In this document: positions 1-24,443 of the stretch, piece after piece
Layout: every line of letters starts with the position of its first letter
Position numbering within the stretch: position 1 is the first letter of the stretch
Assembly: GCA_001766815.1 (NCBI GenBank)
Contig: LYOS01000001.1
Span: forward strand, 450,001 to 482,000
Origin: Candidatus Syntropharchaeum caldarium
Lineage (GTDB): Archaea > Halobacteriota > Syntropharchaeia > Syntropharchaeales > Syntropharchaeaceae
Direction: 5' to 3'
DNA length: 32,000 bases
Notes under the pieces: model-generated
What the model saw: the letters and a program-made list of their open reading frames with translations, nothing else
Databases searched by the model: none
Told to the model about the DNA's origin: nothing
Position numbers and translations under genes: made by a program

Positions 1-1367
1 CACACGACCCAGCAAGTCCGTACAGAGGCTTAAACAGCTTCGATGCAGATGGCGATGGCGCCCGTGATGCAGTGAGGGTTGAGAGTGAGAACACGCTCGG
101 CATGGATATCGATCAGGATGGCGTGAATGAGTCCATGAACCCCGATGGTATTGCACTTAACGGCGATGAGACGGTTGTCTTCACACTCAGGAAGTACATG
201 AACGAGGGAGACACACTCCAGTTCTTCGACCACAAGGTTACACTCAAGGAGGTCTTCAGCTATCCAGATGTTGCGATCCTTGATGTCTGTGACAACGAGG
301 GTGGCAGCAGTACAAACTGTGAACAGGACGTTACGATAGCAGAGGGTAACTACGTGCTCTTCTACCGCGGTGCGATGAGAAATGAAGGAACGACCTTCTA
401 CGTGAAGCTGATACAGGCTGATGCAAATGATAATAAGGCGATCGTTGAGGTCGGACGAATGTTTGGTCAGACCCATGCAAACATAGGGGCTAACCTCTAC
501 TGGAACCAGAAAGCATTCATCGTGGATGGTGTCCTCTACAGCGTGGCTGCGATCATGACAGGACCTATCGGTACTTACGATGGTGACTGCTTCAAGTACA
601 TCACGATCCGCGAGAAGCTTCCAAAGTTCCCGATCAAGATCTACGGCAAGCATCTCGATGTACTGGAGCCCTATGAGCTAATTCCAGAGCCAGCACCGTT
701 CAGCGAGGATCACGAGGTGCTCGTTGATGTGCTGCCATACCAGTTCATACCACAGGATCAGCAGGATAAGATCGGCGATAAGATCGCACGACCACCACTC
801 GAGATCTGGTACACCGAAGAGTCGATTGAGCCACGGTTCACAGGATCACTGCTTGAGATACTGGATGAGCCTGAGTGTCTCGGTCCGAACTTCATCCATA
901 ACGACTACTGCTCGAGTCTTCTCAGCGAACAGTGGATGGTTGAGTGGTTCCACACATACCCAGAGCAGTACACAGCATTCGTGCTACCAGAGGGCGAACT
1001 CTACCTGATGACGCTTGCATGGTTTGCACCAGAGGCAGAGACAACGATCTGGGATAGTGATCCATATGAGCCAATCGTTACCAAGTCAGGCGACCGCGCG
1101 AAGTTCTGGTATGACCCAGCAGATCCGACGGATATCTATGTGACGAAGACAACTCAGACACCGCCACCGCCACCACCGACATGCAAAGGCGACTTCAACG
1201 ACGATGGCGTCATCAACTTCGATGACTTCGTGGAGTTTGCAGGAGCATACGGTTCTTCCAGTGGTGATCCCAACTACAACGCTCTCGGCGACTTCAACGA
1301 CGATGGCGTCATCAACTTCGATGACTTCGTGGAGTTTGCAGGCGTCTATGGCACATCCTGTCCGTGA
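1..1367 (+). CDS. Surface/secreted protein with an unassigned N-terminal region and a C-terminal dockerin; the 5' end lies outside the window
   Basis: The frame is open from nt 3 to the TGA at 1365-1367, with no stop upstream of the track's GTG at 72, so the gene is truncated by the window edge. It ends with a Pro-rich linker (TQTPPPPPPT) followed by GDFNDDGVINFDDFVEFAGAYG and GDFNDDGVINFDDFVEFAGVYG. This is a duplicated Ca-binding loop-helix (DxNxDGxIxxxD) as in type I dockerins. Confidence 0.8.
   Translation, partial: HDPASPYRGLNSFDADGDGARDAVRVESENTLGMDIDQDGVNESMNPDGIALNGDETVVFTLRKYMNEGDTLQFFDHKVTLKEVFSYPDVAILDVCDNEGGSSTNCEQDVTIAEGNYVLFYRGAMRNEGTTFYVKLIQADANDNKAIVEVGRMFGQTHANIGANLYWNQKAFIVDGVLYSVAAIMTGPIGTYDGDCFKYITIREKLPKFPIKIYGKHLDVLEPYELIPEPAPFSEDHEVLVDVLPYQFIPQDQQDKIGDKIARPPLEIWYTEESIEPRFTGSLLEILDEPECLGPNFIHNDYCSSLLSEQWMVEWFHTYPEQYTAFVLPEGELYLMTLAWFAPEAETTIWDSDPYEPIVTKSGDRAKFWYDPADPTDIYVTKTTQTPPPPPPTCKGDFNDDGVINFDDFVEFAGAYGSSSGDPNYNALGDFNDDGVINFDDFVEFAGVYGTSCP
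1182..1364 (+). other. Dockerin module (two F-hand segments)
   Basis: 61 aa, CKGDFNDDGVINFDDF...GDFNDDGVINFDDF. The two segments are encoded by a base-perfect 56-nt direct repeat (1188-1243 and 1287-1342). Confidence 0.8.
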
Positions 1368-1391
1368 AATGCGGACAGATGAGTTAATGAG

Positions 1392-3641
1392 GTGAAGACA
1401 ATGAAGGCAAGAATGACAGGGGCGGGCTTTGCAGCCCTCCTCTTAATATTTAGTCTCTTCGCAACCATTAGCGTGAGTACAGTCACAGCAGCAGGTCCTG
1501 AGGTCTATGTTAACCCAGCGTTAACTGAAGATCTCTGCCCGGGTGATACATTCACGGTCACGGTCGAGGTGGACTCCGACACATTCAACCTCAGAGCCGT
1601 TCAACTGGATCTGGTGTATGATACAACCAAATTCCAGGTAAACGGTGCTACTGTCGAGGATGATCTCTTTGGAGCAGGTAACTATCTGGATCTAAGCGAT
1701 CTCACAGACGACGGAGAGCTGAACCTCGCTATAGCCAGTACGAATCCACCCTACGGACCAGAATCTGGAACCCTTGTAACCGTAGAGTTTGAGGTGAAGG
1801 CCGGCGTTCCAGACAACACATACGCACTCGATCTGCAGAATGTCGTGCTCAAGGATGAGAACAACGATGACATTCCAGGTGTTACCGTAACCGACGGTGC
1901 GGCTGAGGTAGATTGTGGTGCACCACCAGCAGGTCCTGAGGTCTATGTTAACCCAGCGTTAACTGAAGATCTCTGCCCGGGTGATACATTCACGGTCACG
2001 GTCGAGGTGGACTCCGACACATTCAACCTCAGAGCCGTTCAACTGGATCTGGTGTATGATACAACCAAATTCCAGGTAAACGGTGCTACTGTCGAGGATG
2101 ATCTCTTTGGAGCAGGTAACTATCTGGATCTAAGCGATCTCACAGACGACGGAGAGCTGAACCTCGCTATAGCCAGTACGAATCCACCCTACGGACCAGA
2201 ATCTGGAACCCTTGTAACCGTAGAGTTTGAGGTGAAGGCCGGCGTTCCAGACAACACATACGCACTCGATCTGCAGAATGTCGTGCTCAAGGATGAGAAC
2301 AACGATGACATTCCAGGTGTTACCGTAACCGACGGTGCGGCTGAGGTAGATTGTGGTGCACCACCAGCAGGTCCTGAGGTCTATGTTAACCCAGCGTTAA
2401 CTGAAGATCTCTGCCCGGGTGATACATTCACGGTCACGGTCGAGGTGGACTCCGACACATTCAACCTCAGAGCCGTTCAACTGGATCTGGTGTATAATCC
2501 GGCTGTGCTACAGGTCAACACAATCACGGAGAATGGACTCTTCGCAACATACCTCACAGAGCCAGGCAGTGGTGACGACGGTGCTGGAACGATCCACTAT
2601 GGAATGTCCAGTACTGAAGGTACTTATACACCATCAGCTGGAACCTTCATAACTGTGGAGTTTGAGGTTTTGCCTGGGGCACCTGATGCGACGTATGCAC
2701 TCGATCTGCAGAATGTCGTGCTCAAGGATGAAAACAACGATGACATTCCAGGTGTTACCGTAACCGATGGTGCGGCTGAGGTGTATTGCGTGGATAACCC
2801 ACCAATCCCGGACATAACCGAGCCAGCAGACGGTGCAGAACTGTGCCCAGATGATCAGGTCACGATCAGCGTTGTCGATCTCAGTGGTGAAGGTGATATT
2901 GTATCCACGGTCATCGAGTACTACTATGATGCGGACTGCAACGGTGTAGCAGATGATGGAAATAGCTGGATAGAGATCACCAGTCCATGGAATACAACCG
3001 GATTGGATCCTGGTTGCTACCTGATACGGGCGACGATGGAAGACGATATAGGTCAGACCGGAGAAGACCAGATCGGTGTGGAGATTCTACCGTGCTGTGA
3101 TGCGGACTTTGTGCTCTACCTTGAAGCAGGGTGGAACCTGGTTTCAGTGCCAAAGCCGATCCTGCCATTTGGTGTCAATGCAACAACACTCTTTGATCTG
3201 GTACCTGGTGAGACCGCGTCTTACTATGATGCGTCAACCGCTTCATGGATCAACGATGGTGATATAATCGTTGCACCATGTCAGGGATACTGGGTCTACA
3301 AGGTTGCACCTGAGGCGATCTGTATCTACTACGACAGGTCGGTCCTGATCCCACCGGTACAGGAGCTGTATCAAGGCTGGAACATGATCGGGCATATCGA
3401 TGACACCGTCTGGAGCGTTGAGGACTTTGTCGTTGCCACAGGACTCAGCAATGTGTGCTGTGAAGATAAGGCAACGATGATCGCAACGCTCGAAGAACAG
3501 GGAATGTCGCCTACAGATGTAAGACTCGTGTACAACTACCCAGCAGCCCCAGGAATCTCTGAGTTCGACAGTATGACACCGGGCTATGGATACTGGGCGT
3601 TCCTGACTGAAGAGCACCTGATGCCTGGAACAACTGCATGA
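1392..3641 (+). CDS. Scaffoldin-like secreted protein: signal peptide, three tandem cohesin modules, an Ig-like spacer and an unassigned C-terminal domain
   Basis: N-terminal signal peptide (MKTMKARMTGAGFAALLLIFSLFATISVSTVTAA). Three roughly 146-aa modules follow the cohesin pattern (PGDTFTVTVEV...LRAVQLDLVYD...GTLVTVEFEVKAG...TYALDLQNVVLKD...IPGVTVTDGAAEV). The start is GTG 1392, or ATG 1401 preceded by GAGGTGA at 1389-1395. The gene lies 24 nt downstream of a dockerin gene. Confidence 0.85.
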   Translation: MKTMKARMTGAGFAALLLIFSLFATISVSTVTAAGPEVYVNPALTEDLCPGDTFTVTVEVDSDTFNLRAVQLDLVYDTTKFQVNGATVEDDLFGAGNYLDLSDLTDDGELNLAIASTNPPYGPESGTLVTVEFEVKAGVPDNTYALDLQNVVLKDENNDDIPGVTVTDGAAEVDCGAPPAGPEVYVNPALTEDLCPGDTFTVTVEVDSDTFNLRAVQLDLVYDTTKFQVNGATVEDDLFGAGNYLDLSDLTDDGELNLAIASTNPPYGPESGTLVTVEFEVKAGVPDNTYALDLQNVVLKDENNDDIPGVTVTDGAAEVDCGAPPAGPEVYVNPALTEDLCPGDTFTVTVEVDSDTFNLRAVQLDLVYNPAVLQVNTITENGLFATYLTEPGSGDDGAGTIHYGMSSTEGTYTPSAGTFITVEFEVLPGAPDATYALDLQNVVLKDENNDDIPGVTVTDGAAEVYCVDNPPIPDITEPADGAELCPDDQVTISVVDLSGEGDIVSTVIEYYYDADCNGVADDGNSWIEITSPWNTTGLDPGCYLIRATMEDDIGQTGEDQIGVEILPCCDADFVLYLEAGWNLVSVPKPILPFGVNATTLFDLVPGETASYYDASTASWINDGDIIVAPCQGYWVYKVAPEAICIYYDRSVLIPPVQELYQGWNMIGHIDDTVWSVEDFVVATGLSNVCCEDKATMIATLEEQGMSPTDVRLVYNYPAAPGISEFDSMTPGYGYWAFLTEEHLMPGTTA
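1491..2804 (+). repeat. 438-bp tandem repeat encoding the cohesin modules: copies 1 and 2 identical, copy 3 mosaic
   Basis: Copy 1 (1491-1928) and copy 2 (1929-2366) read identically base for base. Copy 3 starts at 2367 and is identical to them up to about 2495. It then diverges centrally and returns to near identity from about 2693 (acgtatgcactcgatctgcagaatgtcgtgctcaagga...). Confidence 0.95.
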
Positions 3642-3666
3642 GGTGATCGAAAAAAATAGCGATATA

Positions 3667-3694
3667 GAAAGGATTATTTTTCCTTTCTTTTTTT
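3667..3694 (+). terminator. Hairpin plus T7 tract downstream of the scaffoldin gene
   Basis: Stem gaaagg (3667-3672) and cctttc (3682-3687) flank a 9-nt loop, followed directly by ttttttt (3688-3694). Oligo-T tracts are the established archaeal termination signal. Confidence 0.55.
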
Positions 3695-3745
3695 ATTATT
3701 TATCAAATTCAGGGTTGTAAAAAAAAACGATTTAGAGGTGAAAAA

Positions 3746-4453
3746 ATGAAAATGAAAGACTTAGCTGTTACAGGATTAGTTTTGATCATGCTTATCGGAG
3801 CGTTTGCTCCTGTTGTATCAGCAGATGAGCAATCCACCACACCACTCCCGCCAAACAAGTTCTGGGGTACTGTAAATCTAAACGGTGAGCCGCTTGCTGC
3901 TGGATACATGGTGAAGGCGTACATCGATGGCGAGCTTCGAGGGAGTGTGATTGTTACAACACCGGGTAAATATGGTGAACCTCCATCTCTCTATCTTGTA
4001 GTAGATGGTAGTGCATCTGATGAGGGAAAGACAATAACCTTCACACTTGCAGGTGTTCCAGCTGAGGAGACTGCAACCTGGAAGGCAATGAATCCTCCAC
4101 AGGTACTTAACCTCACAGCAAGTGGTGAACCCAAGGAAACACCTGTACCAACCCCCACACCTCGTCCCACGGTAACAGCAACACCAGCTGCAACAGCAAC
4201 TCAAACGCCAGCACCCCAGGATCACGCCCAGGGCGAGAGTAGTACTGATTCATTCAACCAATCGGATGGAGCCATAAGTAGTGTGATCGACTCAATCTTT
4301 GGTGGTAACGAGGCTTCGGATGAAGAAATCCCGGGTGAATCGGGAAATCTTAGAACAATATATGCGATATTGATAATCGAAGCGATCCTGATTGCAATTG
4401 GAATCACAGGTATTCTCTTCTATTTCAGAAAGAAACGAAGAGGTGGTATATAA
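3746..4453 (+). CDS. Type I membrane-anchored surface protein (paralog A): signal peptide, conserved roughly 100-aa N-domain, Pro/Thr linker, C-terminal TM helix
   Basis: GAGGTGA RBS at 3734-3740. Signal peptide MKMKDLAVTGLVLIMLIGAFAPVVSA. N-domain PLPPNKFWGTVNLNG...[10 protein letters not shown]...ETATW. Linker ETPVPTPTPRPTVTATPAATATQTPAP. TM helix IYAILIIEAILIAIGITGILFYF followed by RKKRRGGI. Confidence 0.75.
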   Translation: MKMKDLAVTGLVLIMLIGAFAPVVSADEQSTTPLPPNKFWGTVNLNGEPLAAGYMVKAYIDGELRGSVIVTTPGKYGEPPSLYLVVDGSASDEGKTITFTLAGVPAEETATWKAMNPPQVLNLTASGEPKETPVPTPTPRPTVTATPAATATQTPAPQDHAQGESSTDSFNQSDGAISSVIDSIFGGNEASDEEIPGESGNLRTIYAILIIEAILIAIGITGILFYFRKKRRGGI

Positions 4454-4476
4454 TTAGAGATTAGGAGGTAATAGTT

Positions 4477-5376
4477 ATGGAAATGAAAAAACTTGCAGCG
4501 ATTGGCATACTGGCACTACTCTTACTCTCAGTCTTCACAGCGGTATCGATGACATCGGTGATGGGTGATACAACACCATTGCCCCCAAACAAGTTCTATG
4601 GTAATGTAACTTTGAACGGTACCGATGCTCCAATCGAGACAGTAGTAAGCGCGTACATCGATGGTGAGCTTCGTGGAAGTACCACGGTCACGACAGAAGG
4701 GAAGTATGGTGATAATCTCAACTATCTTATAGTAAATGGCAGTGCAGCAGATATCGGCTCAACGATCGTCTTCTACGTCAATGGTGTTCGTGCAAATGAG
4801 ACTGCCACATGGCAGAACATGGAACCACCGAGAAAGCTTGACCTTGGTGCAGCAGGTGAGTCAGAACCGACAGATGAGCCCACTCCTGAGCCGACTGAAG
4901 AACCAACTCTTTCACCAACTGCCACCGAATCAGGTGGAACTGGTCCAGGTGGAGGAGGTGGAGGCGGAAGCGGCCCCACTGACTCGGACGGTGATGGTAT
5001 TCCAGATATAGATGAAATGAGTGGCTGCACAGACCCGGACAACCCTGACACTGATGGAGATGGTCTCAATGACTTTGAAGAAACTGTTAAAGGCGCAGAT
5101 GGCTGGATAACCGATCCATGTGATCCTGATACCGATGGTGACGGTGTATGGGATGGCAAAGATGCGTATCCGCTTGATTCAACAAGGTCTACGATAGAAG
5201 AAGTGACCGCAACAGCAACCGAGCCACCAGCAGCAACCGAGGAAGCCACACCAGAACCACCAGAACCAACACCAGGCGAAGAGCAGGGTGCTGTTAGCTG
5301 GTACATGATCATCGGTGCGATCGTACTGATACTGATCGGGCTTGTACTGGTCTATCTGTACATGCAGAGGGAGTGA
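4477..5376 (+). CDS. Type I membrane-anchored surface protein (paralog B) with thrombospondin-type-3-like Ca-binding repeats
   Basis: AGGAGGT RBS. Signal peptide, then the same N-domain as 3746-4453 ([15 protein letters not shown]...[10 protein letters not shown]...ETATW). PE/PT linker and a poly-Gly run ([11 protein letters not shown]). Asp-rich repeats [29 protein letters not shown] and [18 protein letters not shown]-terminal TM helix [21 protein letters not shown]. Confidence 0.75.
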
Positions 5377-5378
5377 AC

Positions 5379-5397
5379 AAGAAGAGTGTCTCTTCTT
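5379..5397 (+). terminator. Perfect 8-bp hairpin immediately after the stop codon, followed by T-rich sequence
   Basis: aagaagag (5379-5386), tgt loop, ctcttctt (5390-5397), then ctccctattctttatattttt. Confidence 0.45.
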
Positions 5398-5474
5398 CTC
5401 CCTATTCTTTATATTTTTGAAATACCGAGAGGGGTAATAAATATAAAAGAAGAAATATAAGCTACAGAAGAGGT

Positions 5475-7628
5475 GTGACTTTGAAGATCGCATTAACGAT
5501 TTTAGTTCTGTTCCTATTAACGTTCTCTTGCGTTGCAACTGCATATGAGGATGCAAATCTCGATGAGGTTGGAAAAATTCTTGATGATGCCGGGATGAGC
5601 TTCTATGACCTCTATCCCATACAGCAGGAAATAAGAGATAGGAATTTGAACTGGACTGCCGGGGTGACATCAGTATCCAATCTTTCAGTTGAGGAGAAAA
5701 GGGCGTTATGTGGTCTTGAAGTTAACTCTGGTACATTACTATCTACTGCCCAGACCCTCAAGGCGCCTGTGGAATTGAGGGTAAACTCCACATCCACATC
5801 TTACGGAACGTTCGACTGGCGAGATGTGAACGGAGGAGACTGGATGACCACTGTGAAAAATCAGGCTTCGTGTGGGAGTTGCTGGGCGTTTGCAGATCTT
5901 GGGGTGATCGAGGCTCGGGTAAACATCGAACTCAACGATCCTGACTTTGACCTGGATCTATCAGAGCAGCACCTTGTATCTGCCTGCTGTCCTGCTGGGA
6001 ACTGTGGTGGTGGCGATCCACTCGGTGCTTTCTTTTATATCCAGGAGAATGGTGTGCCAGTGGAGGACTGCTTTCCATACCTTGCCGATAATAGCGACTG
6101 TACCCCATGCACAGATTGGGAGGATGGTGCATGGACGATTGGAGACATCTATCAGGTTGTGCCGGGCACAACAGAAGCTTACAAATGGGGGCTTGAAAAT
6201 TATGGTCCCATGGTCGTTGCACTTGATGCCCCTGACGACATGTTCTATTACACAGGTGGTATTTATGAACCACTTGATGGATGGAGTGGTACCCCAAACC
6301 ATGCGGTTGTGCTTGTTGGATACAATGATACCGGTGAATACTGGATCATAAAGAACTCATGGGGAGAGGGTTGGGGCGAAGGTGGATATGGGAGGGTTCA
6401 TTATGGTGATCTTGAACAGTATAGCGATTATGGATTTCCACTCGTGATTGATAACGTATCAGGACCAACGCCTGTTCACAACCTTAACACATCAGAGGAT
6501 TTTTACACAATCCAGGCTGCAATAGATGATCATGATACGTTAAATGGGCATATCATTGAGGTTGAAGATGGGGTGTATCATGAGAACATTAAGGTAAACA
6601 AGGGTGTAACAATCCGATCGACAAGCGGGGCCGGAGGTTGTATCATTGTTGCAAGAAATCCAGATGAGCATGTCTTTAATGTAACTGCTGATTCTGTAAA
6701 TATAAGCGGGTTTACGGTGGAGGGGGCAGTATCAGAAACCGGGATAATTCTTGAGAGTGTAAATCATTGCAGCATCTTCGATAATATCATATCCGATAAT
6801 AAGTATGGCATTTACCTCAACCATTCTTCAAGAAGCAGACTGCATAACAATTCAATATCGAATAACAGCTATAACTTTGGTGTAAGCGGTGAAAGCCTCT
6901 CAGACTACATCCATGATCTTGATAGTACAAATACCGTAAATGGTAAGCCTATTTATCTGATTATAAATCAGAGTGGTCTGGTCATAGACCCCTCGTGGAA
7001 CGCTGGTTTTCTGGGTGTTGTGAACTCGGATGATATAACCGTCGAAGGCATAACCATAGGCGAGAATGTAAAGGGTGTACTCTTTACCTACACGAACAAC
7101 TCAACGATAACGAATGTGACCAGTCTGGATAATGATTATGGCATATATCTCTATGAATCATCGAATAATGTGATTACAGAATGTAATCTAACTTCAAACA
7201 AAAACGGAATTTATATAAACTCGTCATGTGATAATCGAGTGCACCACAATAAATTCATTGATAACATAATTCAGGGATGTGATGATATGAATACCAACAT
7301 CTGGGATGATGGCTATCCATCGGGTGGTAATTACTGGAACGATTATTTCTGTGTGGATGATAACGGTGATGGAATCGGGGATGTACCCTATCAAATAGCA
7401 GGTGGTGCAGGGGCAGTAGATCGGTATCCCCTGTGTTTTTTTACTTTCTCATGTAAAGGTGACTTCGATAGTGATGGTGACATCGACTTCGATGATTTTG
7501 TGGAGTTTGCAGGAGTATATGGTTCTACCACCGGTGATCCCGAGTACAACGCTCTCGGCGACTTTGATGACGATGGTGACATCGACTTCGATGACTTCGT
7601 TCAGTTTGCTGGAGGGTATGGTACCTAA
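5475..7628 (+). CDS. Secreted papain-family (C1) cysteine peptidase fused to a right-handed parallel beta-helix region and a C-terminal dockerin
   Basis: Signal peptide (LKIALTILVLFLLTFSCVATA). The start is GTG 5475 or, more likely, TTG 5481, which lies 5 nt after AGGTG. C1 catalytic motifs: NQASCGSCWAFA (Cys codon 5880-5882), NHAVVLVGY (His codon 6300-6302) and WIIKNSWGEGWGEGGY. Then about 300 aa of NosD/PbH1-like beta-helix turns (repeated N.I..N..GIYL...S.N). It ends in CKGDFDSDGDIDFDDFVEFAG...GDFDDDGDIDFDDFVQFAG. Confidence 0.85.
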   Translation: MTLKIALTILVLFLLTFSCVATAYEDANLDEVGKILDDAGMSFYDLYPIQQEIRDRNLNWTAGVTSVSNLSVEEKRALCGLEVNSGTLLSTAQTLKAPVELRVNSTSTSYGTFDWRDVNGGDWMTTVKNQASCGSCWAFADLGVIEARVNIELNDPDFDLDLSEQHLVSACCPAGNCGGGDPLGAFFYIQENGVPVEDCFPYLADNSDCTPCTDWEDGAWTIGDIYQVVPGTTEAYKWGLENYGPMVVALDAPDDMFYYTGGIYEPLDGWSGTPNHAVVLVGYNDTGEYWIIKNSWGEGWGEGGYGRVHYGDLEQYSDYGFPLVIDNVSGPTPVHNLNTSEDFYTIQAAIDDHDTLNGHIIEVEDGVYHENIKVNKGVTIRSTSGAGGCIIVARNPDEHVFNVTADSVNISGFTVEGAVSETGIILESVNHCSIFDNIISDNKYGIYLNHSSRSRLHNNSISNNSYNFGVSGESLSDYIHDLDSTNTVNGKPIYLIINQSGLVIDPSWNAGFLGVVNSDDITVEGITIGENVKGVLFTYTNNSTITNVTSLDNDYGIYLYESSNNVITECNLTSNKNGIYINSSCDNRVHHNKFIDNIIQGCDDMNTNIWDDGYPSGGNYWNDYFCVDDNGDGIGDVPYQIAGGAGAVDRYPLCFFTFSCKGDFDSDGDIDFDDFVEFAGVYGSTTGDPEYNALGDFDDDGDIDFDDFVQFAGGYGT
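7452..7625 (+). other. Dockerin module of the protease
   Basis: Two DxDxDGxIDFDDF loop-helix segments separated by GVYGSTTGDPEYNAL. Same architecture and linker as the dockerin at 1182-1364. Confidence 0.8.
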
Positions 7629-7672
7629 TGTCCATGATAATAGTCCAATGCTTAGAATACAAGGTGTAAAGT

Positions 7673-8500
7673 ATGAAAACAATGGATAGTAAAAGAGGGT
7701 TGGCGGGCTTAACCGTATCCCTATTAATATTCAGTCTATTCGTAACTCTTGGCATAAGCACGGTAGCAGCAACGGCACCCAGCGTCTCTATTGACCCAGC
7801 GTTGACAGAGAACCTCTGCCCGGGTGATACATTCCATGTAACAGTCACGGTGAACTCATCCACATACAACCTCAGGGCAGTTTCGATGGATCTTGTCTAT
7901 AACTCGACCGTCCTGCAGGTGAACGAGATCACAGTTAGCGGCCCCTTCACATCGTACCTCACAGAGCCAGGCAGTGGTGACGACGGTGCTGGAACAATCC
8001 ACTATGGCATAGCGAATACTGAGGGAACATACAGACCATCTGCTGGAACTTTCATAACTGTAGAGTTTGAGGTGAAGGCAGGTGCCGCTGACGGAAACTA
8101 CGCGCTTGCTTTACAGAATGTCGTGCTCAAAGACGAGAATAATGATGTTATTCCAGGTGTTACGGTAACCGATGGTGAGGGTGTGGTGGAATGTAATGCT
8201 ATATCACCCACCGCTACAGCCAATGAGACCGCAAATGCGACAGCCACTGTTACAGCAACCCCCACAGCCAACGAAACCGCAAATGCGACAGCTACTCCAA
8301 CGGCAAACGCTACAGCCACCGCAACCGAGACCACAACGGCCACTGCAACACTGACAGAGATCCCCACCACAACAGCCACTGCCACAGAAACACCGGCAGA
8401 AACGCCAGAATCGACTGAGACGCCAGTTCAACCTGGATTCGGCATAGCTCTTCTCCTGATAGGGCTTGCAGCAGTCTACATATTAAAGCGAAAGAATTAA
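7673..8500 (+). CDS. Cell-surface anchor protein: signal peptide, single cohesin module, Thr/Ala/Asn glycosylation-type linker, PGF-CTERM sorting signal
   Basis: AAGGTG RBS 6 nt upstream of the ATG. The signal peptide is homologous to that of the scaffoldin. The cohesin module (PGDTFHVTVTV...LRAVSMDLVYN...GTFITVEFEVKAG...NVVLKDENNDVIPGVTVTDGEG) resembles the centre of scaffoldin copy 3. The C-terminus is PVQPGFGIALLLIGLAAVYILKRKN. Confidence 0.85.
   Translation: MKTMDSKRGLAGLTVSLLIFSLFVTLGISTVAATAPSVSIDPALTENLCPGDTFHVTVTVNSSTYNLRAVSMDLVYNSTVLQVNEITVSGPFTSYLTEPGSGDDGAGTIHYGIANTEGTYRPSAGTFITVEFEVKAGAADGNYALALQNVVLKDENNDVIPGVTVTDGEGVVECNAISPTATANETANATATVTATPTANETANATATPTANATATATETTTATATLTEIPTTTATATETPAETPESTETPVQPGFGIALLLIGLAAVYILKRKN
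8420..8497 (+). other. PGF-CTERM archaeosortase (ArtA-type) recognition signal
   Basis: The PGF tripeptide (codons 8432-8440) is followed by a hydrophobic helix and a basic tail (KRKN) at the extreme C-terminus, after a Thr-rich linker. This is the established PGF-CTERM architecture. Confidence 0.8.
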
Positions 8501-9097: not shown

Positions 9098-9439
9098 TCA
9101 TCCTGCAACCTCATTACCAAACGTTATTCTACCATCTGCAAGATACTCACATGAGACATCAAGCACCTTATCTGATCCCGCGTCACCAGCGACGTGTATC
9201 GTCTCAACCGCGCACCCTTCCTCAATCAGGATCTTGATGGCACCCCAGAGATCACCTTCGAGCATGACCTGCATCCGTGAATCGGTTGCTATAACCTCCT
9301 TAAATCCATCTGTAAACCTACCAAGACGCGATAGAATCCGATCCATCATATCATCATCGATTCTACCTTTTGCAACGATCGTCTTCATCCTGCGCAATCC
9401 GGATCTTCTTCTCATCTGTACTAAATCTCGCATGCTCAT
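9098..9439 (-). CDS. Hypothetical 113-aa protein, first gene of the hsp20 operon
   Basis: Clean ORF on the same strand, 65 nt upstream of hsp20. No motif recognised. Confidence 0.5.
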   Translation of the reverse strand: MSMRDLVQMRRRSGLRRMKTIVAKGRIDDDMMDRILSRLGRFTDGFKEVIATDSRMQVMLEGDLWGAIKILIEEGCAVETIHVAGDAGSDKVLDVSCEYLADGRITFGNEVAG

Positions 9440-9518
9440 GATATATGAACCCCCATGCCTCCTACCTCTATTAAGTGCAGGGATTCCCTGCTAAATAATG
9501 CAATTCTCATACAATTCC

Positions 9519-9549
9519 TTTATATCTCTCAGTATCACAAAGATATAAA
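9519..9549. promoter_or_regulatory. Perfect 9-bp inverted repeat carrying two opposed TATA-like elements in the divergent intergenic region
   Basis: tttatatct (9519-9527) and agatataaa (9541-9549) are exact reverse complements separated by 13 nt. They lie between the divergent genes 9098-9439 (-) and 9677-10669 (+). Confidence 0.35.
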
Positions 9550-9676
9550 TTGAATTGAGAATGGGGTGTTATAAATGTGTTCACCACCCTAATCGGCATT
9601 CAAAAGATTCTAAACCCTTTTTTCCTTTGTGGATGCACGATAGGTTTATTAGTGTTAAGTGAAATTGTAAGTTAGT

Positions 9677-10669
9677 GTGAACTCAATGCAACGAAAGAAC
9701 ATTTCATTGACCGATGATCACATCAAGATGCTCGAACCGTTCATCAAGGAGCACGAGGGTAACATCTCCGCCGCGATAAGATCCGTGATAGAGATCGCAT
9801 GCAAAAGATCACCATCTGTAGAGGGGCGCGAGTTAACACAGCTCCATCCTTTAATCGCAAGATGGCTGATCAAGAATTCGGCTGGATGCGTTCCAGATCC
9901 AGATGCCATAAAAGAACTCATGTGTGAGCTTGGTTATCTTAACGGGCATACATCAACCGATGATGTCTGTAGGGGATTATGTAACATAGTCGATACCGCT
10001 GGTTTTAATGTTGAGATGGAGGTTATGGAGTGTGGGAAGAAAGGTATCCTTCTGAAGTTCAAGGGGCACGATCCACTCATGAATGAGTTTGTCGCAATGA
10101 TGATCTCCCTTGGTCTTGCATCTTTAGATCTCCCATACAGAATCAAATCAATAGATGAACCCTCGACACTGATGAAGATAGCCTATGAGAGGGGAGCGGG
10201 GGCATACGAGCGTGTGGTCGAGCACTTTGGCTACAACCAGTTCTTCTGCGATGAACTTAAAAACAGGTGGGAGTGGTGGAAGTGGGTTGTCGAGACATCA
10301 GCGATGCTCAACTACAAAATGATCTTCATAACTGAGACCGTTCTTGAGAATCTCATCCAGGGTAAGAGTTGTCCAGGTGGTGTAACATACATTGAGCGAA
10401 AGAGCGGAAAGTACTGTAAGGAAATACCGTTTGATGAGTTTTTTCTGCTTCTTCGAGAGCTGTTTAAGAATGCCCGAATAATTGATGAAATGACATATCA
10501 TGAAGATAGTGGTGAGATACTGATCTATCACAACTTCCGTGATCCTGTGGTGATAGAACAGATCGCAGAATGGATCGAAAATCTGATAAAGATCCACTGG
10601 CCGAATCTTGAACACGAGACATCCGCGCAAACAACGGTCTTCAGAAGGATTGAAGATGCAGAAGATTGA
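9677..10669 (+). CDS. Hypothetical protein with a probable N-terminal ribbon-helix-helix DNA-binding motif
   Basis: RKNISLTDDHIKMLEPFIKEHEGNISAAIRSVIEIA fits a strand-helix-GxS/T-helix RHH (CopG/Arc-like) pattern. The remaining roughly 280 aa are unassigned. The start is GTG 9677 or ATG 9686. Confidence 0.5.
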   Translation: MNSMQRKNISLTDDHIKMLEPFIKEHEGNISAAIRSVIEIACKRSPSVEGRELTQLHPLIARWLIKNSAGCVPDPDAIKELMCELGYLNGHTSTDDVCRGLCNIVDTAGFNVEMEVMECGKKGILLKFKGHDPLMNEFVAMMISLGLASLDLPYRIKSIDEPSTLMKIAYERGAGAYERVVEHFGYNQFFCDELKNRWEWWKWVVETSAMLNYKMIFITETVLENLIQGKSCPGGVTYIERKSGKYCKEIPFDEFFLLLRELFKNARIIDEMTYHEDSGEILIYHNFRDPVVIEQIAEWIENLIKIHWPNLEHETSAQTTVFRRIEDAED

Positions 10670-10724: not shown

Positions 10725-11486
10725 ATGTGTGCATCCTCAACAAAGAAATGGTTTGATGAGTGGGCAGACGAGTATGATGACATCCTTCCACGTGTTCGTG
10801 AGTACCAGAAACTTGTTGAAAGAATTGTTGAGTACGCCCGGGTAAGGAATGGAGACACGGTGCTTGATATCGGGTGTGGGACAGGATATTTGAGTTTGAA
10901 GCTCATGGATGTTGCAGCATGCAGGCTTGTTGCCGTTGATCTCTCATCCGAGATGCTGAAGGTCTTTAGAGAGAAGCTTTATCACCTTAGAGCAGAGGGT
11001 TATGATTTTTCTACCGGTATAGAACTTGGATCGGGTGATTGTCTCTCTCTGCCTTTTAAGGATGGGACATTTGATGTTATTACATCATCGGTTGTGATGC
11101 ACCACATTAAACCTGAAAAGAAACAAATCGCGTTGAGCGAGATCCACCGGGTTCTTAAGCCAGGTGGGAGATTTTTACTTGGTGAGCTGAACTTCGATGC
11201 AACAGGAGATCTGAATGATTCTGTGCGGCTTGAGCGAGTCATGGCAGGTCTTACAAAGGTACTCTCGACGATCGTGGCATCACTCGGTGCTGGTGTGCTC
11301 GATCGGATGTTTGATAACGCAAAACGCCATCTCCTCTGTGACGATGAGTATGCAATAACCATTGATATGTGGGAAAAACTCTCTATAGATGCCGGTTTTA
11401 ATCCCATCTGGCGCGAGGTGCTTCCATCTGGTGCATGGGGATTTTTATGCCTGGAGAAGGCTACCTGCACAAAGGAGCAGCCTTAA
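10725..11486 (+). CDS. Class I SAM-dependent methyltransferase
   Basis: Motif I VLDIGCGTGYLSLKL, then FDVITSSVVMHH and LKPGGRFLLGE (Methyltransf_11/UbiE-like pattern). Confidence 0.8.
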   Translation: MCASSTKKWFDEWADEYDDILPRVREYQKLVERIVEYARVRNGDTVLDIGCGTGYLSLKLMDVAACRLVAVDLSSEMLKVFREKLYHLRAEGYDFSTGIELGSGDCLSLPFKDGTFDVITSSVVMHHIKPEKKQIALSEIHRVLKPGGRFLLGELNFDATGDLNDSVRLERVMAGLTKVLSTIVASLGAGVLDRMFDNAKRHLLCDDEYAITIDMWEKLSIDAGFNPIWREVLPSGAWGFLCLEKATCTKEQP

Positions 11487-12049
11487 ATCAAAATTTTATC
11501 CCTCACCTCCCCAAATACCTCCTCAATGCTCCTGTTCCCATCTATAAATACGACGTTACCCTCTGCAACCTTCCTGAAGTTACGGGAGATCTTTTCAAGC
11601 TTCTCAAGCTCTTCGAATAACTCTATCCCATTATTTCGCTGCTTTATTCGCTCAAGCGATACTTCAGGCGGTGTCTCGATGACAAAGGTAAGATCAGGGG
11701 TTATAGAATACCGATTTATCATAACAACCCACTCAAGATCAAGCGTTAGCGACTGATACGCATAAGACGATAACCGATACCGATCAGAGATCACGATCTC
11801 TCCTTTCTCAATTCTCTCAACGATTATTTTCGTGTGCTCAACCCTGTCTGCTGCAAAGAGAAGTGCGAGTGTTGCATCACTCACCTCAATCTCCTTTCTC
11901 AGGACACGCCTGATTAACTTCCCAATCTCTCCTGTTGTGGGTTCTTTTGTGAGATATACGGTGTAACCCTTGCTTTCTAACCATTCTGCAAGGAGCTTAC
12001 TCTGTGTTGAGAGTCCTGAGCCATCTGTACCTTCAAATGCGATCAGCAT
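11483..12049 (-). CDS. tmk: Thymidylate (dTMP) kinase homologue with a non-canonical P-loop
   Basis: MLIAFEGTDGSGLSTQ...TKEPTTGEIGKLIR...FAADRVEH...SDRYRLSSYAYQ...PDLTFVIE matches the TMPK pattern. The start is set at ATG 12049. The track's upstream extension to 12232 overlaps the radical-SAM gene and is rejected. Confidence 0.75.
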   Translation of the reverse strand: MLIAFEGTDGSGLSTQSKLLAEWLESKGYTVYLTKEPTTGEIGKLIRRVLRKEIEVSDATLALLFAADRVEHTKIIVERIEKGEIVISDRYRLSSYAYQSLTLDLEWVVMINRYSITPDLTFVIETPPEVSLERIKQRNNGIELFEELEKLEKISRNFRKVAEGNVVFIDGNRSIEEVFGEVRDKILI

Positions 12050-13061
12050 AGATGCACCACGGCTCTTCTGCAAGATAACTCCCGTTGACCGCAAAAGCAC
12101 GCGCCCTGCAACCGCCACAGATCGTGTTATATCGGCATGATCCGCATCGCCCCTCAAGCAATTCTGGATCGCGAAGTTCCTTGAAGACCTCAGATTCTTT
12201 CCAGATCTCTTCAAAACCTGTTTCCCGCACATTTCCGACCTTTATCGGCAGATATGGGCATGGGTTCACATCACCATCTGGTTTTATCCTGCAGTAGGCT
12301 GTTGCAGCAAGGCATCCCTTTGTAAACCTCTTAATCTGCCAGTTGTCCTCACCACCACGCTGCATGGCAATCCGCATAAACTGAGGTGCACAAACCGCTT
12401 TAAGTTCAATCGGAAAGTCCTGACTCTTTTCATATAAAAATACAAGCATGTCTTCGTACTGCTGTGGCGTTACATCGATGACATCCTCTGCCCTTCCTGT
12501 CGGGACAAGGAAAAAGAGATGAAAAGCATCAGCTCCAAGATCAAGTACGAAATCCATCATATCAGGGATTTCTTCATAGTTATCCCTTGTGATGGTTGTG
12601 TGAACCTGAAAGCTCAAACCGCCCTCCTTACACGCCTTTGCACCACCAATCGCAGCAGCGTGTGAGCCTTCAAGCCCCCTGAAATGATCATGGATCGAGG
12701 GTGAGAGGGCATCGATACTGATCCCCACCCGTGCAACACCCGCGTTTTTGAGCTTTGAAACAACTTCGTCGGTGAGGAGGGTTCCATTTGTGCCCATAAC
12801 GATCCTCAAGCCCTTGGAGTTCCCGTAGGATGCGATCTCGTAGATATCCTTTCTCAGAAGTGGCTCACCACCGCTCAAGATCAAAATAGGCTTTGAGAAA
12901 GATGCAATATCATCGATCAGCCTGAATGCTTCATCGGTATTCAGTTCGTCAGGAGGTGCTTCACCAACTCCAACCGCATCGATGTAACAGTGATCACAGA
13001 ATAAGTTACACTCGTATGTTGTGTTCCATGAGATCAATCGTGGTAAAAACGTATCGTTCAT
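12033..13061 (-). CDS. Radical SAM enzyme with a C-terminal SPASM-type auxiliary-cluster domain (NirJ/AhbC/AhbD-like)
   Basis: CNLFCDHCY (CX3CX2C), GGEPLL, and a Cys-rich C-terminus (CPYLP...GRCGSCRYNTICGGCRARAF). The size and N-terminal pattern (LISWNTTYECNL) resemble the alternative-haem-pathway radical SAM enzymes. The specific assignment is unverified. Confidence 0.65.
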   Translation of the reverse strand: MNDTFLPRLISWNTTYECNLFCDHCYIDAVGVGEAPPDELNTDEAFRLIDDIASFSKPILILSGGEPLLRKDIYEIASYGNSKGLRIVMGTNGTLLTDEVVSKLKNAGVARVGISIDALSPSIHDHFRGLEGSHAAAIGGAKACKEGGLSFQVHTTITRDNYEEIPDMMDFVLDLGADAFHLFFLVPTGRAEDVIDVTPQQYEDMLVFLYEKSQDFPIELKAVCAPQFMRIAMQRGGEDNWQIKRFTKGCLAATAYCRIKPDGDVNPCPYLPIKVGNVRETGFEEIWKESEVFKELRDPELLEGRCGSCRYNTICGGCRARAFAVNGSYLAEEPWCIYADRI

Positions 13062-17490: not shown

Positions 17491-17576
17491 TCTTGCATCA
17501 AAGAAACATCTCAATTAATATTCATAATTCAATCAGATGGTTTAGCTCTGAGCTTTTCGAGTCTGAAGGAGGATCT

Positions 17577-17960
17577 ATGAAGGGGATAGCCAAAGGAATG
17601 GGAGTAACATTCAGGTACAACTTCAAACCAGCCATTACAGTACAGTATCCTGACGAGAGCCCCGTCATCGAAGAGCGCTTCAGAGGGCATCATCACATCA
17701 TGAGCAAAAACTGCATCGCATGTAACCTCTGTGCAAAGGCATGTCCTGTCGGTGCGATCAAGCTCTCATTTGAGAAAGGTGAAGATAAAAAGAAGGTTTT
17801 AACTGAGTACGAGCTTGATATTGGTGTTTGTATCTGGTGTGGGTTATGTGTTGACGCCTGCCCAAAAGATGCGCTTATCATGTCACAGGATTTTGAACTT
17901 TTTGCACGGGAACGAGAAGAACTGAAACGTAATCTTTTGGAGGAGGAAATTCATGCTTGA
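17577..17960 (+). CDS. fpoI: Fpo/Nuo complex subunit I (2x[4Fe-4S] ferredoxin-type)
   Basis: CIACNLCAKACPVGAI and CIWCGLCVDACPKDAL; N-terminus KGMGVTFRYNFKPAITVQYPDE. The start is set at ATG 17577 behind GGAGG, not at the track's 17493. Confidence 0.85.
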   Translation: MKGIAKGMGVTFRYNFKPAITVQYPDESPVIEERFRGHHHIMSKNCIACNLCAKACPVGAIKLSFEKGEDKKKVLTEYELDIGVCIWCGLCVDACPKDALIMSQDFELFAREREELKRNLLEEEIHA

Positions 17961-18195
17961 GAGTTTTGTATTTGCAATTGTTGCGTTGATCCTCCTTCTT
18001 TCGAGTATCATGGTTGTGAAATCAAAAGAAGTGATGCACAGTGCATTATCGCTCGCTGTGATGCTCATCGGAATTGCGGGTGTGTATGTCATGCTTGACG
18101 CCGAATTTCTGGCAGCAGTTCAGATCCTCGTCTATGCGGGTGGCGTTGTGATACTGATTGTATTTGCGATATTCATGTTGAGGTGGGAGCGATGA
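17953..18195 (+). CDS. fpoJ: Fpo/Nuo subunit J, N-terminal part
   Basis: FAIVALILLLSSIMVVKSKEVMHSALSLAVMLIGIAGVYVMLDAEFLAAVQILVYAGGVVILIVFAIFM is the NuoJ core. The J subunit is split into two ORFs, as reported for the Methanosarcina fpoJJ arrangement. Confidence 0.8.
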   Translation: MLESFVFAIVALILLLSSIMVVKSKEVMHSALSLAVMLIGIAGVYVMLDAEFLAAVQILVYAGGVVILIVFAIFMLRWER

Positions 18196-18739: not shown

Positions 18740-18741
18740 CA

Positions 18742-24332: not shown

Positions 24333-24443
24333 GGTATCAGACTTTGAGTGGAGCGTAGCGAAACCAGATATGTGTCTGTTAGGCGCTGTTGGTCACCCAA
24401 CTTTCCATGATCAATTCTAAACTCAGTAAATTTTTTGAGTATT

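What the first reader, a model, noticed from the sequence alone, without database searches (positions are those of the whole stretch)
1..8500. Archaeal cohesin-dockerin surface-assembly locus built from two dockerin-gene to cohesin-gene pairs
Seen directly: six consecutive plus-strand genes all encode exported proteins. Gene 1 ends in a dockerin and is followed 24 nt later by a gene with three cohesin modules. Gene 5 ends in a near-identical dockerin and is followed 44 nt later by a gene with one cohesin plus a PGF-CTERM anchor. The dockerin 3' ends, the short spacers and the MKTM... signal peptides of the two cohesin genes are homologous, so the pair looks like a duplicated module. Established knowledge: cohesin-dockerin pairs are the Ca-dependent connectors of bacterial cellulosomes. 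Non-cellulosomal cohesin and dockerin modules have been noted in archaea (Archaeoglobus, ANME genomes) but have no defined function. PGF-CTERM proteins are lipid-anchored by archaeosortase A. Inference: together these genes would form a complete self-contained kit of cell-anchored cohesin, soluble polyvalent scaffoldin and dockerin cargos. No glycoside hydrolase is present; the only recognisable enzyme is a protease. This would be a surface 'proteolysome', adhesion or matrix-remodelling complex rather than a cellulosome.
Basis: partly seen in the sequence, partly recalled or inferred. Interest (0 to 1): 0.85.

Follow-up and report, generated by a model that had tools for sequence, protein, structure and literature searches.

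The report
Archaeal cohesin-dockerin surface display locus
A butane-oxidising archaeon (Candidatus Syntrophoarchaeum caldarius) encodes a six-gene kit whose sequence suggests it hangs a giant surface protein and a protease on the cell through cohesin-dockerin plugs; in close relatives each plug and its socket are replaced together by an unrelated pair, which points to which parts bind which.

Summary
Window 1-8500 carries six co-oriented genes.

- **g1** is cut by the window edge and ends in a dockerin.
- **g2** starts 24 nt later and has a signal peptide, three cohesins, an Ig domain and a conserved C-terminal domain (CTD).
- **g3 and g4** are membrane-anchored proteins that share an N-terminal domain.
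- **g5** has Peptidase_C1, a beta-helix and a dockerin.
- **g6** starts 44 nt later and has a cohesin and a PGF-type anchor.

- The dockerins fall below Pfam's cut-off but match a solved dockerin (E=1.7e-11).
- They are 74% identical at the protein level, not near-identical.
- The spacers are not homologous.

The window comes from Ca. Syntrophoarchaeum caldarius.

The main new evidence is comparative. The block [tag, spacer, signal peptide, receptor modules] spans the gene junction. In relatives that share 93-97% flanking nucleotide identity, this block is replaced whole by an unrelated pair: an EF-hand-like tag X and DUF11/CLIPPER-like Ig modules Y.

Across 24 junctions, dockerin always precedes cohesin (11) and X always precedes Y (13). 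None is mixed. This supports local cognate pairing.

Archaeal cohesin-dockerins, including ANME scaffoldins, are already published. This is therefore a new variant of a known kind. The cargo's function is unknown, and binding is inferred, not shown.

The parts
1..1367 (+). g1, 3' part of a giant secreted cargo protein (454 aa visible). The conserved body ends in ...KFWYDPADPTDIYV, followed by a proline linker and a C-terminal dockerin (about 1180-1364).
   Evidence: Open from the window edge. No Pfam family for the body. Body homologues occur in ANME-1, Methanoperedens, GoM-Arc1, Methanosarcinaceae and Archaeoglobus. Dockerin matches 2y3n_B at E=1.7e-11.
1180..1931 (+). Junction-spanning tag/receptor cassette 1: dockerin, stop codon, 24-nt spacer, signal peptide, first cohesin.
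   Evidence: 77% nt identity to the equivalent block of L004. Paralogous to 7450-7900. The whole block upstream of position 2797 is replaced in L021.
1392..3641 (+). g2, trivalent scaffoldin: signal peptide, cohesins at about 1486-1923, 1924-2361 and 2362-2786, then an Ig-like domain and a conserved C-terminal domain (CTD, 2787-3638).
   Evidence: Cohesin E=9.5e-42, 3 stretches. Perfect 438-nt tandem repeat. CTD is 52% identical to the GoM_oil orthologue and 96% to P0121/P0330. Big_7 was detected in orthologues.
3746..4453 (+). g3: signal peptide, G3N domain of about 100 aa, Thr/Pro linker, C-terminal transmembrane helix with a basic tail. Candidate membrane tether for the g2 CTD.
   Evidence: Exact match to OFV68819.1. 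No Pfam or NCBIfam family. A G3N gene follows every CTD scaffold.
4477..5376 (+). g4: paralogue of g3 (the same G3N domain), with a poly-Gly stretch, thrombospondin-type-3-like Asp-rich Ca-binding repeats and a C-terminal transmembrane helix.
   Evidence: Repeats D6/D7 shared between g3 and g4. Weak TSP3 hits in g4. TSP3_bac in the orthologue.
5475..7628 (+). g5, cargo enzyme: signal peptide, papain-family cysteine protease, right-handed beta-helix (NosD/CASH-like), C-terminal dockerin (about 7450-7625).
   Evidence: Peptidase_C1 E=8.5e-47 and NosD E=6.1e-23. Catalytic Q-C(GSCWAF)-H(NHAV)-N(NSWG) motifs read directly from the translation. Dockerin matches 2y3n_B at E=1.2e-5.
7450..8200 (+). 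Junction-spanning tag/receptor cassette 2: dockerin, stop codon, 44-nt spacer, signal peptide, cohesin.
   Evidence: 81% nt identity of the dockerin to 1180-1367. 69% to the L004 block. Replaced by X' + 2 Y' + dockerin in L001.
7673..8500 (+). g6, anchoring protein: signal peptide, one cohesin, Thr/Asn-rich linker with N-x-T sequons (12-nt periodic repeats, 8205-8384), PGF-type C-terminal sorting signal.
   Evidence: Cohesin E=1.3e-13 and PGF-CTERM 18.9 vs 18.8 bits. C-terminus aligns to the ends of ArtA-dependent S-layer glycoproteins. Repeats D4.

Best explanation
The locus encodes a cell-surface display system.

Two secreted cargo proteins each end in a symmetric, two-repeat, Ca-loop dockerin of one family. 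These are g1, a giant beta-rich protein of unknown function with adhesin-like features, and g5, a C1 cysteine protease fused to a beta-helix. The dockerins plug into cohesins carried by two receptor proteins encoded immediately downstream. g6 has one cohesin on a glycosylated stalk that ends in a PGF-type signal, presumably lipid-anchored by archaeosortase A. g2 has three cohesins.

g2 has no anchor of its own. It carries a conserved Ig + CTD tail that probably binds the G3N domain of the membrane-anchored proteins g3 and g4.

The dockerin at the 3' end of a cargo gene and the cohesin(s) at the 5' end of the next gene form one contiguous DNA cassette. That cassette is inherited, duplicated and exchanged as a unit, which keeps plug and socket matched.

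Shown: module identities, the architecture, the cassette swaps, and the covariation of tag and receptor. Inferred: physical binding, Ca dependence, lipid anchoring, the CTD-G3N tether, and what the cargo does (adhesion or matrix or coat building, plus proteolytic remodelling).
For: Module identities.

Cassette swap 1. L021 is a Syntropharchaeales MAG that is 93.3% identical in DNA to window 2797-5806. Similarity stops exactly at the cohesin/Ig boundary. Upstream of that point, L021 has five Y' modules and a g1 that ends in the X' tag.

Cassette swap 2. L004 and L006 are 97.5% identical up to the end of the g1 body and 94.3% identical from the CTD onward. The block in between is linker + dockerin + spacer + signal peptide + cohesin in L004, and linker + X' + spacer + signal peptide + 2 Y' in L006. 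These two blocks share no similarity.

Same genome pair, second junction. In GoM_oil (L001) the g5 orthologue is 70% identical up to the residue before the tag. It carries X', and the g6 position carries Y' modules.

Survey. 11 junctions are dockerin then cohesin, 13 are X then Y, and 0 are mixed. Lineages include ANME-1, Methanoperedens, GoM-Arc1, Methanosarcinaceae and Syntrophoarchaeales. Fisher's exact test gives 1/C(24,11), about 4e-7, uncorrected for shared ancestry.

CTD and G3N. A G3N gene followed all 10 CTD scaffolds examined with my models (an eleventh, L007, by eye) and was absent next to the 2 directly PGF-anchored receptors checked in that call.

Same dockerin type elsewhere. This dockerin type also occurs on other secreted proteins of related archaea, including subtilase, Peptidase_C39-like, beta-helix and cohesin proteins. 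Archaeal cohesin-dockerin binding has been shown experimentally for Archaeoglobus, as cited in PMC9012536.
Against: No binding was tested.

The tag and receptor are adjacent in the DNA, so a single recombination event moves both. Linkage alone therefore explains part of the covariation.

The Pfam dockerin model is below its cut-off for both window tags. PGF-CTERM is borderline, TIGR04126 was not reported, and no artA lies in the window.

The AF2 model of the g1 body is poor (pLDDT 53.8), so the cargo's function is a guess.

The two cohesin subtypes (c1/c2 versus c3/g6, 60% identity) and the two dockerin subtypes could have narrower specificities than assumed.
Confidence: 0.7

Rival explanations
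1. Structural coat reading. The g1-type giant protein is an S-layer-like or sheath/canopy subunit, and the cassette is essentially its membrane anchor (a two-component surface layer, loosely like SlaA/SlaB). The protease is a secondary passenger.
For: In many lineages the cassette is just the giant protein plus a single receptor module ending in PGF-CTERM (L011, L014, L023, L025, L033, L037, L041). The best PDB fold hit of the confident part of g1 is the DUF1608 S-layer domain of Methanosarcina MA0829 (3u2g, E=6.8e-3, prob 0.94). Chadwick et al. note proteins in ANME-2c that combine S-layer domains with a dockerin (PMC9012536).
Against: The fold hit is above E=0.001, comes from a low-confidence model and has TM 0.16-0.24. 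There is no sequence match to DUF1608. Some orthologues carry VWA, PKD and FG-GAP inserts, which suggest adhesion rather than a lattice. No expression-level data are available.
Confidence: 0.25
2. The complex exists mainly to concentrate proteases on the cell surface for protein scavenging or matrix remodelling.
For: g5 is an intact C1 protease with a dockerin. Many archaeal C1 peptidase homologues carry cohesin and/or dockerin domains (P0010, P0011, P0013, P0017, P0020, P0021, P0079-P0081, P0087). This dockerin type also occurs on a subtilase and on Peptidase_C39-like proteins.
Against: Only one of the two local cargos is a protease. The conserved core of the cassette across lineages is the giant g1 protein plus its receptor, usually without a protease. 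There are four cohesins for one protease.
Confidence: 0.15
3. Adjacency without local pairing. The modules are real, but each dockerin binds cohesins encoded elsewhere or binds promiscuously. The dockerin-cohesin juxtaposition and co-replacement then simply reflect physical linkage of neighbouring DNA.
For: Tag and receptor are contiguous, so any replacement of the junction moves both. The helix residues of the g1, g5 and L004 dockerins are the same (FDDFVEFAGxYG), which suggests one broad specificity. Relatives contain many other proteins with this dockerin.
Against: There are 0 mixed junctions among 24, across deep lineages and at two separate junctions per genome. The breakpoints fall exactly on module boundaries on both sides. 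Within a genome both junctions carry the same system (window: dockerin/cohesin twice; L001: X'/Y' twice).
Confidence: 0.12

Closest known systems
Bacterial cellulosome (Clostridium / Pseudobacteroides cohesin-dockerin scaffoldin systems)
   Same: Same two module families. The dockerin aligns over its full length to the B. cellulosolvens dockerin 2y3n_B. There is a polyvalent scaffoldin (3 cohesins) and a separate cell-anchored single-cohesin protein. Dockerins sit at the C-termini of secreted proteins. Each dockerin has an internally duplicated segment, as in dual-binding-mode dockerins.
   Different: No glycoside hydrolase, no carbohydrate-binding module and no SLH or sortase anchor. The anchor is a PGF-type archaeal signal. 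The scaffoldin has no dockerin of its own but has an Ig + CTD tail. The cargos are a giant unknown protein and a C1 protease. Plug and socket are encoded across one gene junction.
Non-cellulosomal archaeal cohesin-dockerin proteins (Archaeoglobus fulgidus; ANME-1, ANME-2a and ANME-2c scaffoldin-like proteins, Chadwick et al. 2022, PMC9012536; Timmers et al. 2017, PMC5244752)
   Same: Same phylum-level setting of alkane- and methane-oxidising archaea. Multi-cohesin proteins are present. Dockerins sit on non-cellulolytic surface proteins. A role in the extracellular space or in cell contact has been proposed.
   Different: Those reports are domain inventories and state that the partners are unknown. 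Here a conserved gene cassette predicts specific partners. It is found in Syntrophoarchaeum, and it can be exchanged for a non-cohesin, non-dockerin pair.
DUF11/CLIPPER fibrillar-adhesin stalk domains (PMC12617251). Relevant to the alternative Y modules in relatives, not to the window itself.
   Same: 16 of 42 Y-family proteins hit PF01345. The AF2 model is tandem Ig-like beta-sandwiches. They are found in archaeal surface proteins with PGF-CTERM.
   Different: The Y' modules of L001 and L006 themselves give no Pfam hit. Here they occupy the exact position of cohesins and covary with a C-terminal tag, which suggests a receptor role rather than a passive stalk.

Membership tests
Cohesin (PF00963) | Profile HMM score above the curated cut-off | tested here: met
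   g2: 142.9 bits with 3 stretches. g6: 51.7 bits. Cut-off 24.1.
Cohesin (PF00963) | Nine-stranded beta jelly-roll fold | not tested
The only sequence hit to a solved cohesin was weak (5n5p_A, E=0.037).
Dockerin type I (PF00404) | Profile HMM score above the curated cut-off | tested here: not met
   17.2 bits (g1) and 8.8 bits (g5) against 22.9. Tags at the same position in orthologues pass at 41.6, 32.9 and 29.1 bits.
Dockerin type I (PF00404) | Two tandem segments of about 22 residues, each a 12-residue EF-hand-like Ca loop (D1, N/D3, D5, G6, N/D9, D12) followed by a helix | tested here: met
   DFNDDGVINFDDFVEFAGAYGS / DFNDDGVINFDDFVEFAGVYGT in g1. DFDSDGDIDFDDFVEFAGVYGS / DFDDDGDIDFDDFVQFAGGYGT in g5.
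Dockerin type I (PF00404) | Significant similarity to an experimentally solved dockerin | tested here: met
   2y3n_B is the top hit over the full length, E=1.7e-11 (g1) and 1.2e-5 (g5). EF-hand proteins score lower.
Dockerin type I (PF00404) | Ca2+-dependent binding to a cohesin | not testable with these tools
The only support is indirect: covariation at 24 of 24 junctions.
PGF-CTERM / archaeosortase A substrate | C-terminal PGF motif + hydrophobic helix + basic tail recognised by the family models | tested here: inconclusive
   Pfam PF18204 scores 18.9 against 18.8, a borderline pass. TIGR04126 was not reported. The motif ...VQPGFGIALLLIGLAAVYILKRKN is read directly, and the tail aligns to the ends of ArtA-dependent S-layer glycoproteins.
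PGF-CTERM / archaeosortase A substrate | artA present in the genome | not testable with these tools
   None in the 32-kb window. The S. caldarius genome was not retrievable.
Cellulosome | Dockerin-bearing glycoside hydrolases and a carbohydrate-binding module on the scaffoldin | tested here: not met
   No GH or CBM family in any of the six proteins. The locus works like a cellulosome scaffold but is not one.
Peptidase C1 (papain family) | HMM above the cut-off and the catalytic Gln/Cys/His/Asn present | tested here: met
   160.5 bits against 20.7. NQASCGSCWAF, NHAVVLVGY and KNSWG read in the translation.

The most novel reading that the evidence does not exclude
The X tag is an EF-hand-like loop plus two helices (about 45-65 aa, at least two subtypes). 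The Y module is a divergent DUF11/CLIPPER-like Ig domain. Together they would form a previously unrecognised plug-and-socket system, functionally equivalent to dockerin-cohesin. Alkane- and methane-oxidising archaea would swap the two systems as junction-spanning cassettes to re-wire how a conserved giant surface protein and its accessory enzymes are attached to the cell. The S. caldarius window is the cohesin-dockerin allele of that polymorphic locus. A relative with 93% flanking nucleotide identity carries the X/Y allele.
Probability: 0.45. Interest if true: 0.8.

Novelty: new variant of a known kind. Interest (0 to 1): 0.62.

Why it matters
Genome surveys have found cohesins and dockerins to be strikingly abundant in ANME and related archaea. 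The published surveys say explicitly that nobody knows which dockerin binds which cohesin or what the complexes do.

This locus makes that question directly testable. It predicts cognate partners from gene order and gives a natural negative control in the X/Y allele. It also identifies the conserved cargo, a giant protein shared by ANME-1, Methanoperedens, GoM-Arc1, Syntrophoarchaeum and others.

If the X/Y pair binds as predicted, it would be a new modular protein-docking system. That would matter for understanding syntrophic consortium surfaces and would be a candidate orthogonal part for synthetic protein scaffolds.

Tried and rejected
- **Complex prediction.** No interface model exists.
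- **First genome-contig scan** with the CTD alignment found nothing. The S. caldarius contig itself could not be fetched: g6 is not on record and g3 lies only on a 1.9-kb Logan contig. So the 5' end of g1, artA and the genome-wide dockerin count remain unseen.
- **Is Y a divergent cohesin and X a divergent dockerin?** hhalign gives probabilities of 1% and 0.4%. Foldseek on the high-confidence Y model gives generic Ig/adhesin/macroglobulin hits with no cohesin in the top 50. The X'' profile against PDB gives only a weak EF-hand hit. Homology is rejected at detectable levels. An EF-hand-like loop in X is seen by eye only.
- **g1 function from structure.** The AF2 model is poor (pLDDT 53.8). The DUF1608 S-layer hit is kept only as a hint.
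- **Pfam and NCBIfam for the g1 body, g3/g4 N-domain, CTD and X tag.** No family found.
- **Cellulosome reading.** Rejected: no GH or CBM.
- **tRNA or integration signals near the locus.** None found.
- **A. sulfaticallidus locus (P0144).** Could not be fetched.
Full report
**1. What is in the window**

Positions 1-8500 hold six genes on the + strand.

- **g1** is open from the first base and is therefore truncated. 454 aa are visible. It ends in a proline linker and a 60-aa tag.
- **g2** (1392-3641, 749 aa) has a signal peptide, three cohesins (Pfam PF00963, E=9.5e-42, three stretches) and a 284-aa tail.
- **g3** (3746-4453) and **g4** (4477-5376) share an N-terminal domain of about 100 aa (repeats D6/D7). 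Each then has a Thr/Pro-rich linker and a C-terminal transmembrane helix with a basic tail. g4 also carries thrombospondin-type-3-like Asp-rich repeats (weak hits).
- **g5** (5475-7628, 717 aa) has a signal peptide, Peptidase_C1 (E=8.5e-47), a NosD/beta-helix region (E=6.1e-23) and the same kind of 60-aa tag. The papain catalytic motifs NQASCGSCWAF, NHAV and NSWG are intact in the translation.
- **g6** (7673-8500, 275 aa) has a signal peptide, one cohesin (E=1.3e-13), a Thr/Asn-rich linker full of N-x-T sequons and a PGF-type C-terminal signal (PF18204, 18.9 bits against a cut-off of 18.8).

The intergenic regions g2-g3 (104 nt) and g4-g5 (98 nt) are AT- and T-rich. g3-g4 are 23 nt apart with a GGAGGT motif. 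I infer three transcription units: g1-g2, g3-g4 and g5-g6.

**2. Are the tags dockerins?**

Pfam Dockerin_1 gives 17.2 bits for g1 and 8.8 bits for g5, against a cut-off of 22.9. Three other lines of evidence rescue the call.

- phmmer against all PDB chains puts the dockerin of the B. cellulosolvens GH48 enzyme (2y3n_B, solved in complex with a cohesin) first. The alignment is full-length, with E=1.7e-11 for g1 and 1.2e-5 for g5. Other dockerins follow, and EF-hand proteins score lower.
- Each tag is two near-identical 22-residue segments with the canonical Ca-loop positions and a following helix.
- Orthologues of g1 in Methanosarcinaceae (L012), Methanoperedens BLZ2 (L013) and GoM-Arc1 (L018) carry tags at the same position that pass the Pfam cut-off, at 41.6, 32.9 and 29.1 bits.

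I accept them as dockerins of a divergent archaeal subtype (GDFxxDGxIDFxDFVEFAGxYG). The same subtype occurs on subtilase, Peptidase_C39-like, beta-helix, lamin-tail and cohesin proteins of related archaea.

**3. Corrections to the observation**

- The two dockerins are 81% identical in DNA and 74% in protein.
- When the two junctions are aligned, the dockerin part is 80.9% identical. The spacers are 25% identical, which is not homologous. The signal peptide plus cohesin start is 64% identical.
- Cohesins 1 and 2 are a perfect 438-nt tandem repeat (1486-2359). This may reflect a recent duplication; short-read assembly can also miscount such repeats.
- Cohesin 3 is a mosaic. Its first 42 and last 45 residues or so equal those of cohesin 1/2, while its centre resembles the g6 cohesin. 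It is 73% identical to cohesin 1/2 and 74% to the g6 cohesin.

**4. Source organism**

g3, uS5 and FpoD match OFV68819.1, OFV68831.1 and OFV68847.1 of Candidatus Syntrophoarchaeum caldarius exactly. The contig is 491,986 bp. The rest of the window fits this assignment: archaeal ribosomal proteins, methanogenesis marker 16 and Fpo/Nuo subunits. No archaeosortase gene lies in the window.

**5. Comparative evidence for pairing**

This is the main new result.

The closest homologue of g5 lies in a syntenic six-gene locus of Ca. Syntrophoarchaeum sp. GoM_oil (L001). The bodies are orthologous:

- g5 is 70% identical up to the residue before the tag.
- The g2 tail is 52% identical.
- The g1 body gives E=2e-21.

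The interaction parts, however, are all different.

- Both cargos end in an unrelated tag of about 45 aa, called X' here (...YDTNGxxGIQKxEAVxAIADYLIxGTIDKAxAVxVLxCYFF).
- The receptor proteins carry five (g2') or two (g6') copies of an unrelated module of about 105 aa, called Y' here, in place of cohesins.
- g6' ends in a Pfam-significant dockerin instead of a PGF signal.

Two much closer comparisons fix the breakpoints.

L021, from a Syntropharchaeales MAG, is 93.3% identical in DNA to window 2797-5806. That stretch covers the g2 tail, g3, g4 and the start of g5. Similarity ends exactly at the cohesin/Ig boundary. Upstream of it, L021 has five Y' modules and a g1 that ends in X'.

L004 and L006 are 97.5% identical through the end of the g1 body and 94.3% identical from the CTD onward. 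The block between them shares no similarity. In L004 the block is linker, dockerin, spacer, signal peptide and one cohesin. In L006 it is linker, X', spacer, signal peptide and two Y' modules.

So the tag at the 3' end of one gene and the receptor module(s) at the 5' end of the next gene form one exchangeable cassette that spans the gene junction.

**6. Survey**

I built HMMs for cohesin, dockerin, X', X'', Y, CTD, G3N and the g1 body. I used them to classify every locus obtained from the protein database, the GTDB genomes and the JGI metagenomes.

- **Dockerin then cohesin, 11 junctions:** two in the window, plus L004, L008, L012, L013, L018, L030, L031, L035 and L039.
- **X then Y, 13 junctions:** two in L001, plus L021, L006, L011, L014, L022, L023, L025, L026, L033, L037 and L041.
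- **Mixed junctions:** none.

A naive Fisher test gives about 4e-7. Shared ancestry and some near-duplicate loci inflate this. Physical linkage also contributes. Even so, the absence of any mixed junction stands out. It holds across ANME-1, Methanoperedens, GoM-Arc1, Methanosarcinaceae and Syntrophoarchaeales, and at two separate junctions within a genome. This is what selection for matched partners predicts.

In many lineages the receptor is a single Y module ending in PGF-CTERM. That suggests the ancestral job of the receptor gene is to anchor the giant g1-type protein to the membrane.

**7. The g2 tail and g3/g4**

The tail (a Big_7-like Ig domain plus CTD) has 17 homologues. All sit at the C-terminus of proteins whose N-terminal modules vary between cohesin, Y and PKD.

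A gene encoding a G3N domain on a transmembrane or PGF anchor followed all ten CTD scaffolds examined with my models, and an eleventh (L007) by eye. The two directly PGF-anchored receptors checked in the same call had no such neighbour. I infer, with about 0.4 confidence, that the CTD binds G3N. On that reading g2 is tethered rather than soluble.

**8. What are X and Y?**

Y' and X' give no Pfam, NCBIfam or PDB sequence hit. Profile-profile comparison with my cohesin and dockerin alignments gives probabilities of 1% and 0.4%.

The Y family is large. There are 1329 representative clusters at E<=1e-3, and 16 of 42 sampled members hit DUF11/CLIPPER. CLIPPER is a CnaA-like Ig stalk domain of fibrillar adhesins (PMC12617251).

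AF2 models the protein with two Y' modules plus CTD (P0125) at pLDDT 90.3, as tandem beta-sandwiches. Foldseek returns generic Ig, adhesin and macroglobulin hits, and no cohesin.

X'' is a GGNGDGxIDLDEVVNAIxDYL loop-helix followed by a second helix, FxKxDLIxYIxxYL. Against PDB it gives only a weak EF-hand match.

g1-family proteins carry at least four tag types in total.

**9. Function**

The cargo g1 has no recognisable family. Orthologues occasionally carry VWA, PKD or FG-GAP inserts. Its AF2 model is poor, at pLDDT 53.8. The only notable fold hit is the DUF1608 S-layer domain 3u2g, at E=6.8e-3.

I therefore commit only to 'large surface or adhesion or coat protein displayed through cohesin-dockerin, together with a protease-beta-helix enzyme'. 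The specific readings (S-layer-like coat, adhesion to the syntrophic partner, proteolytic remodelling) remain open rivals.

**10. Relation to the literature**

Timmers et al. 2017 (PMC5244752) counted cohesin and dockerin domains in ANME. Chadwick et al. 2022 (PMC9012536) described ANME proteins with a dockerin and up to five cohesins. They also reported dockerins on ABC substrate-binding proteins and on S-layer proteins, and stated that the partners need experimental determination.

My full-text searches found no paper describing this cassette, its swaps or an X/Y pair.

**11. Verdict**

- The locus is a new variant of a known kind of system.
- It has unusual evolutionary behaviour that yields concrete, testable partner predictions.

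Noticed in passing
window 1486-2359: Two cohesin-coding units of 438 nt are 100% identical in tandem. GoM-Arc1 (L018) also has two identical leading cohesins. This is either very recent duplication or gene conversion, or a copy number that short-read assembly cannot fix.
   Followed up: partly
window 2362-2786: Cohesin 3 of g2 is a mosaic. Its ends are identical to cohesin 1/2 and its centre resembles the g6 cohesin (73% and 74% identity). This suggests recombination between the two receptor genes.
   Followed up: partly
L001 11744-12652; L011 6168-7400; L041 10653-11753: Some receptor proteins of the alternative system (Y modules) end in a canonical dockerin. In L041 a protein combines cohesins with a dockerin. 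The two docking systems therefore appear to be chained hierarchically in some genomes, like type I and type II cohesin-dockerins in cellulosomes.
   Followed up: no
P0144 (Archaeoglobus sulfaticallidus), P0150: g1-family proteins of a cultured archaeon and of a Methanosarcinaceae MAG end in yet another tag type (NPYDxNKNxxIEMxELxxAxxDW...). The downstream partner could not be fetched. A cultured host would make the system experimentally tractable.
   Followed up: partly
window 8205-8384: The g6 stalk is built from degenerate 12-nt repeats encoding (T/A)-A-N-(E/A)-T units. It carries many N-x-T sequons, which suggests a heavily N-glycosylated spacer.
   Followed up: no
window 17493-28732: The Fpo/Nuo genes are split into two divergent groups. 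A 4Fe-4S protein and the L, M, N-type antiporter subunits lie on the + strand (17493-24081). H, D, C, B and A lie on the - strand (24660-28732). The subunit B homologue (374 aa) has a long N-terminal extension with a DUF4234 hit.
   Followed up: no
window 9098-10669: Two ORFs (113 aa on the - strand, 330 aa on the + strand) between the HSP20 gene and a methyltransferase have no Pfam family.
   Followed up: no
window 11483-13061: The thymidylate kinase ORF (11483-12232) and the radical SAM/SPASM ORF (12033-13061) overlap by 200 nt as listed. The kinase domain starts at residue 66, so its true start is probably further downstream.
   Followed up: no
L008 6827-7633 and 7643-9004; L018 15166-17058: In relatives the G3N family diversifies. 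One g4-like protein ends in a half-dockerin and is followed by a protein with two cohesins and a lamin-tail domain. Another protein has two G3N domains, a lamin-tail domain and PGF-CTERM.
   Followed up: no
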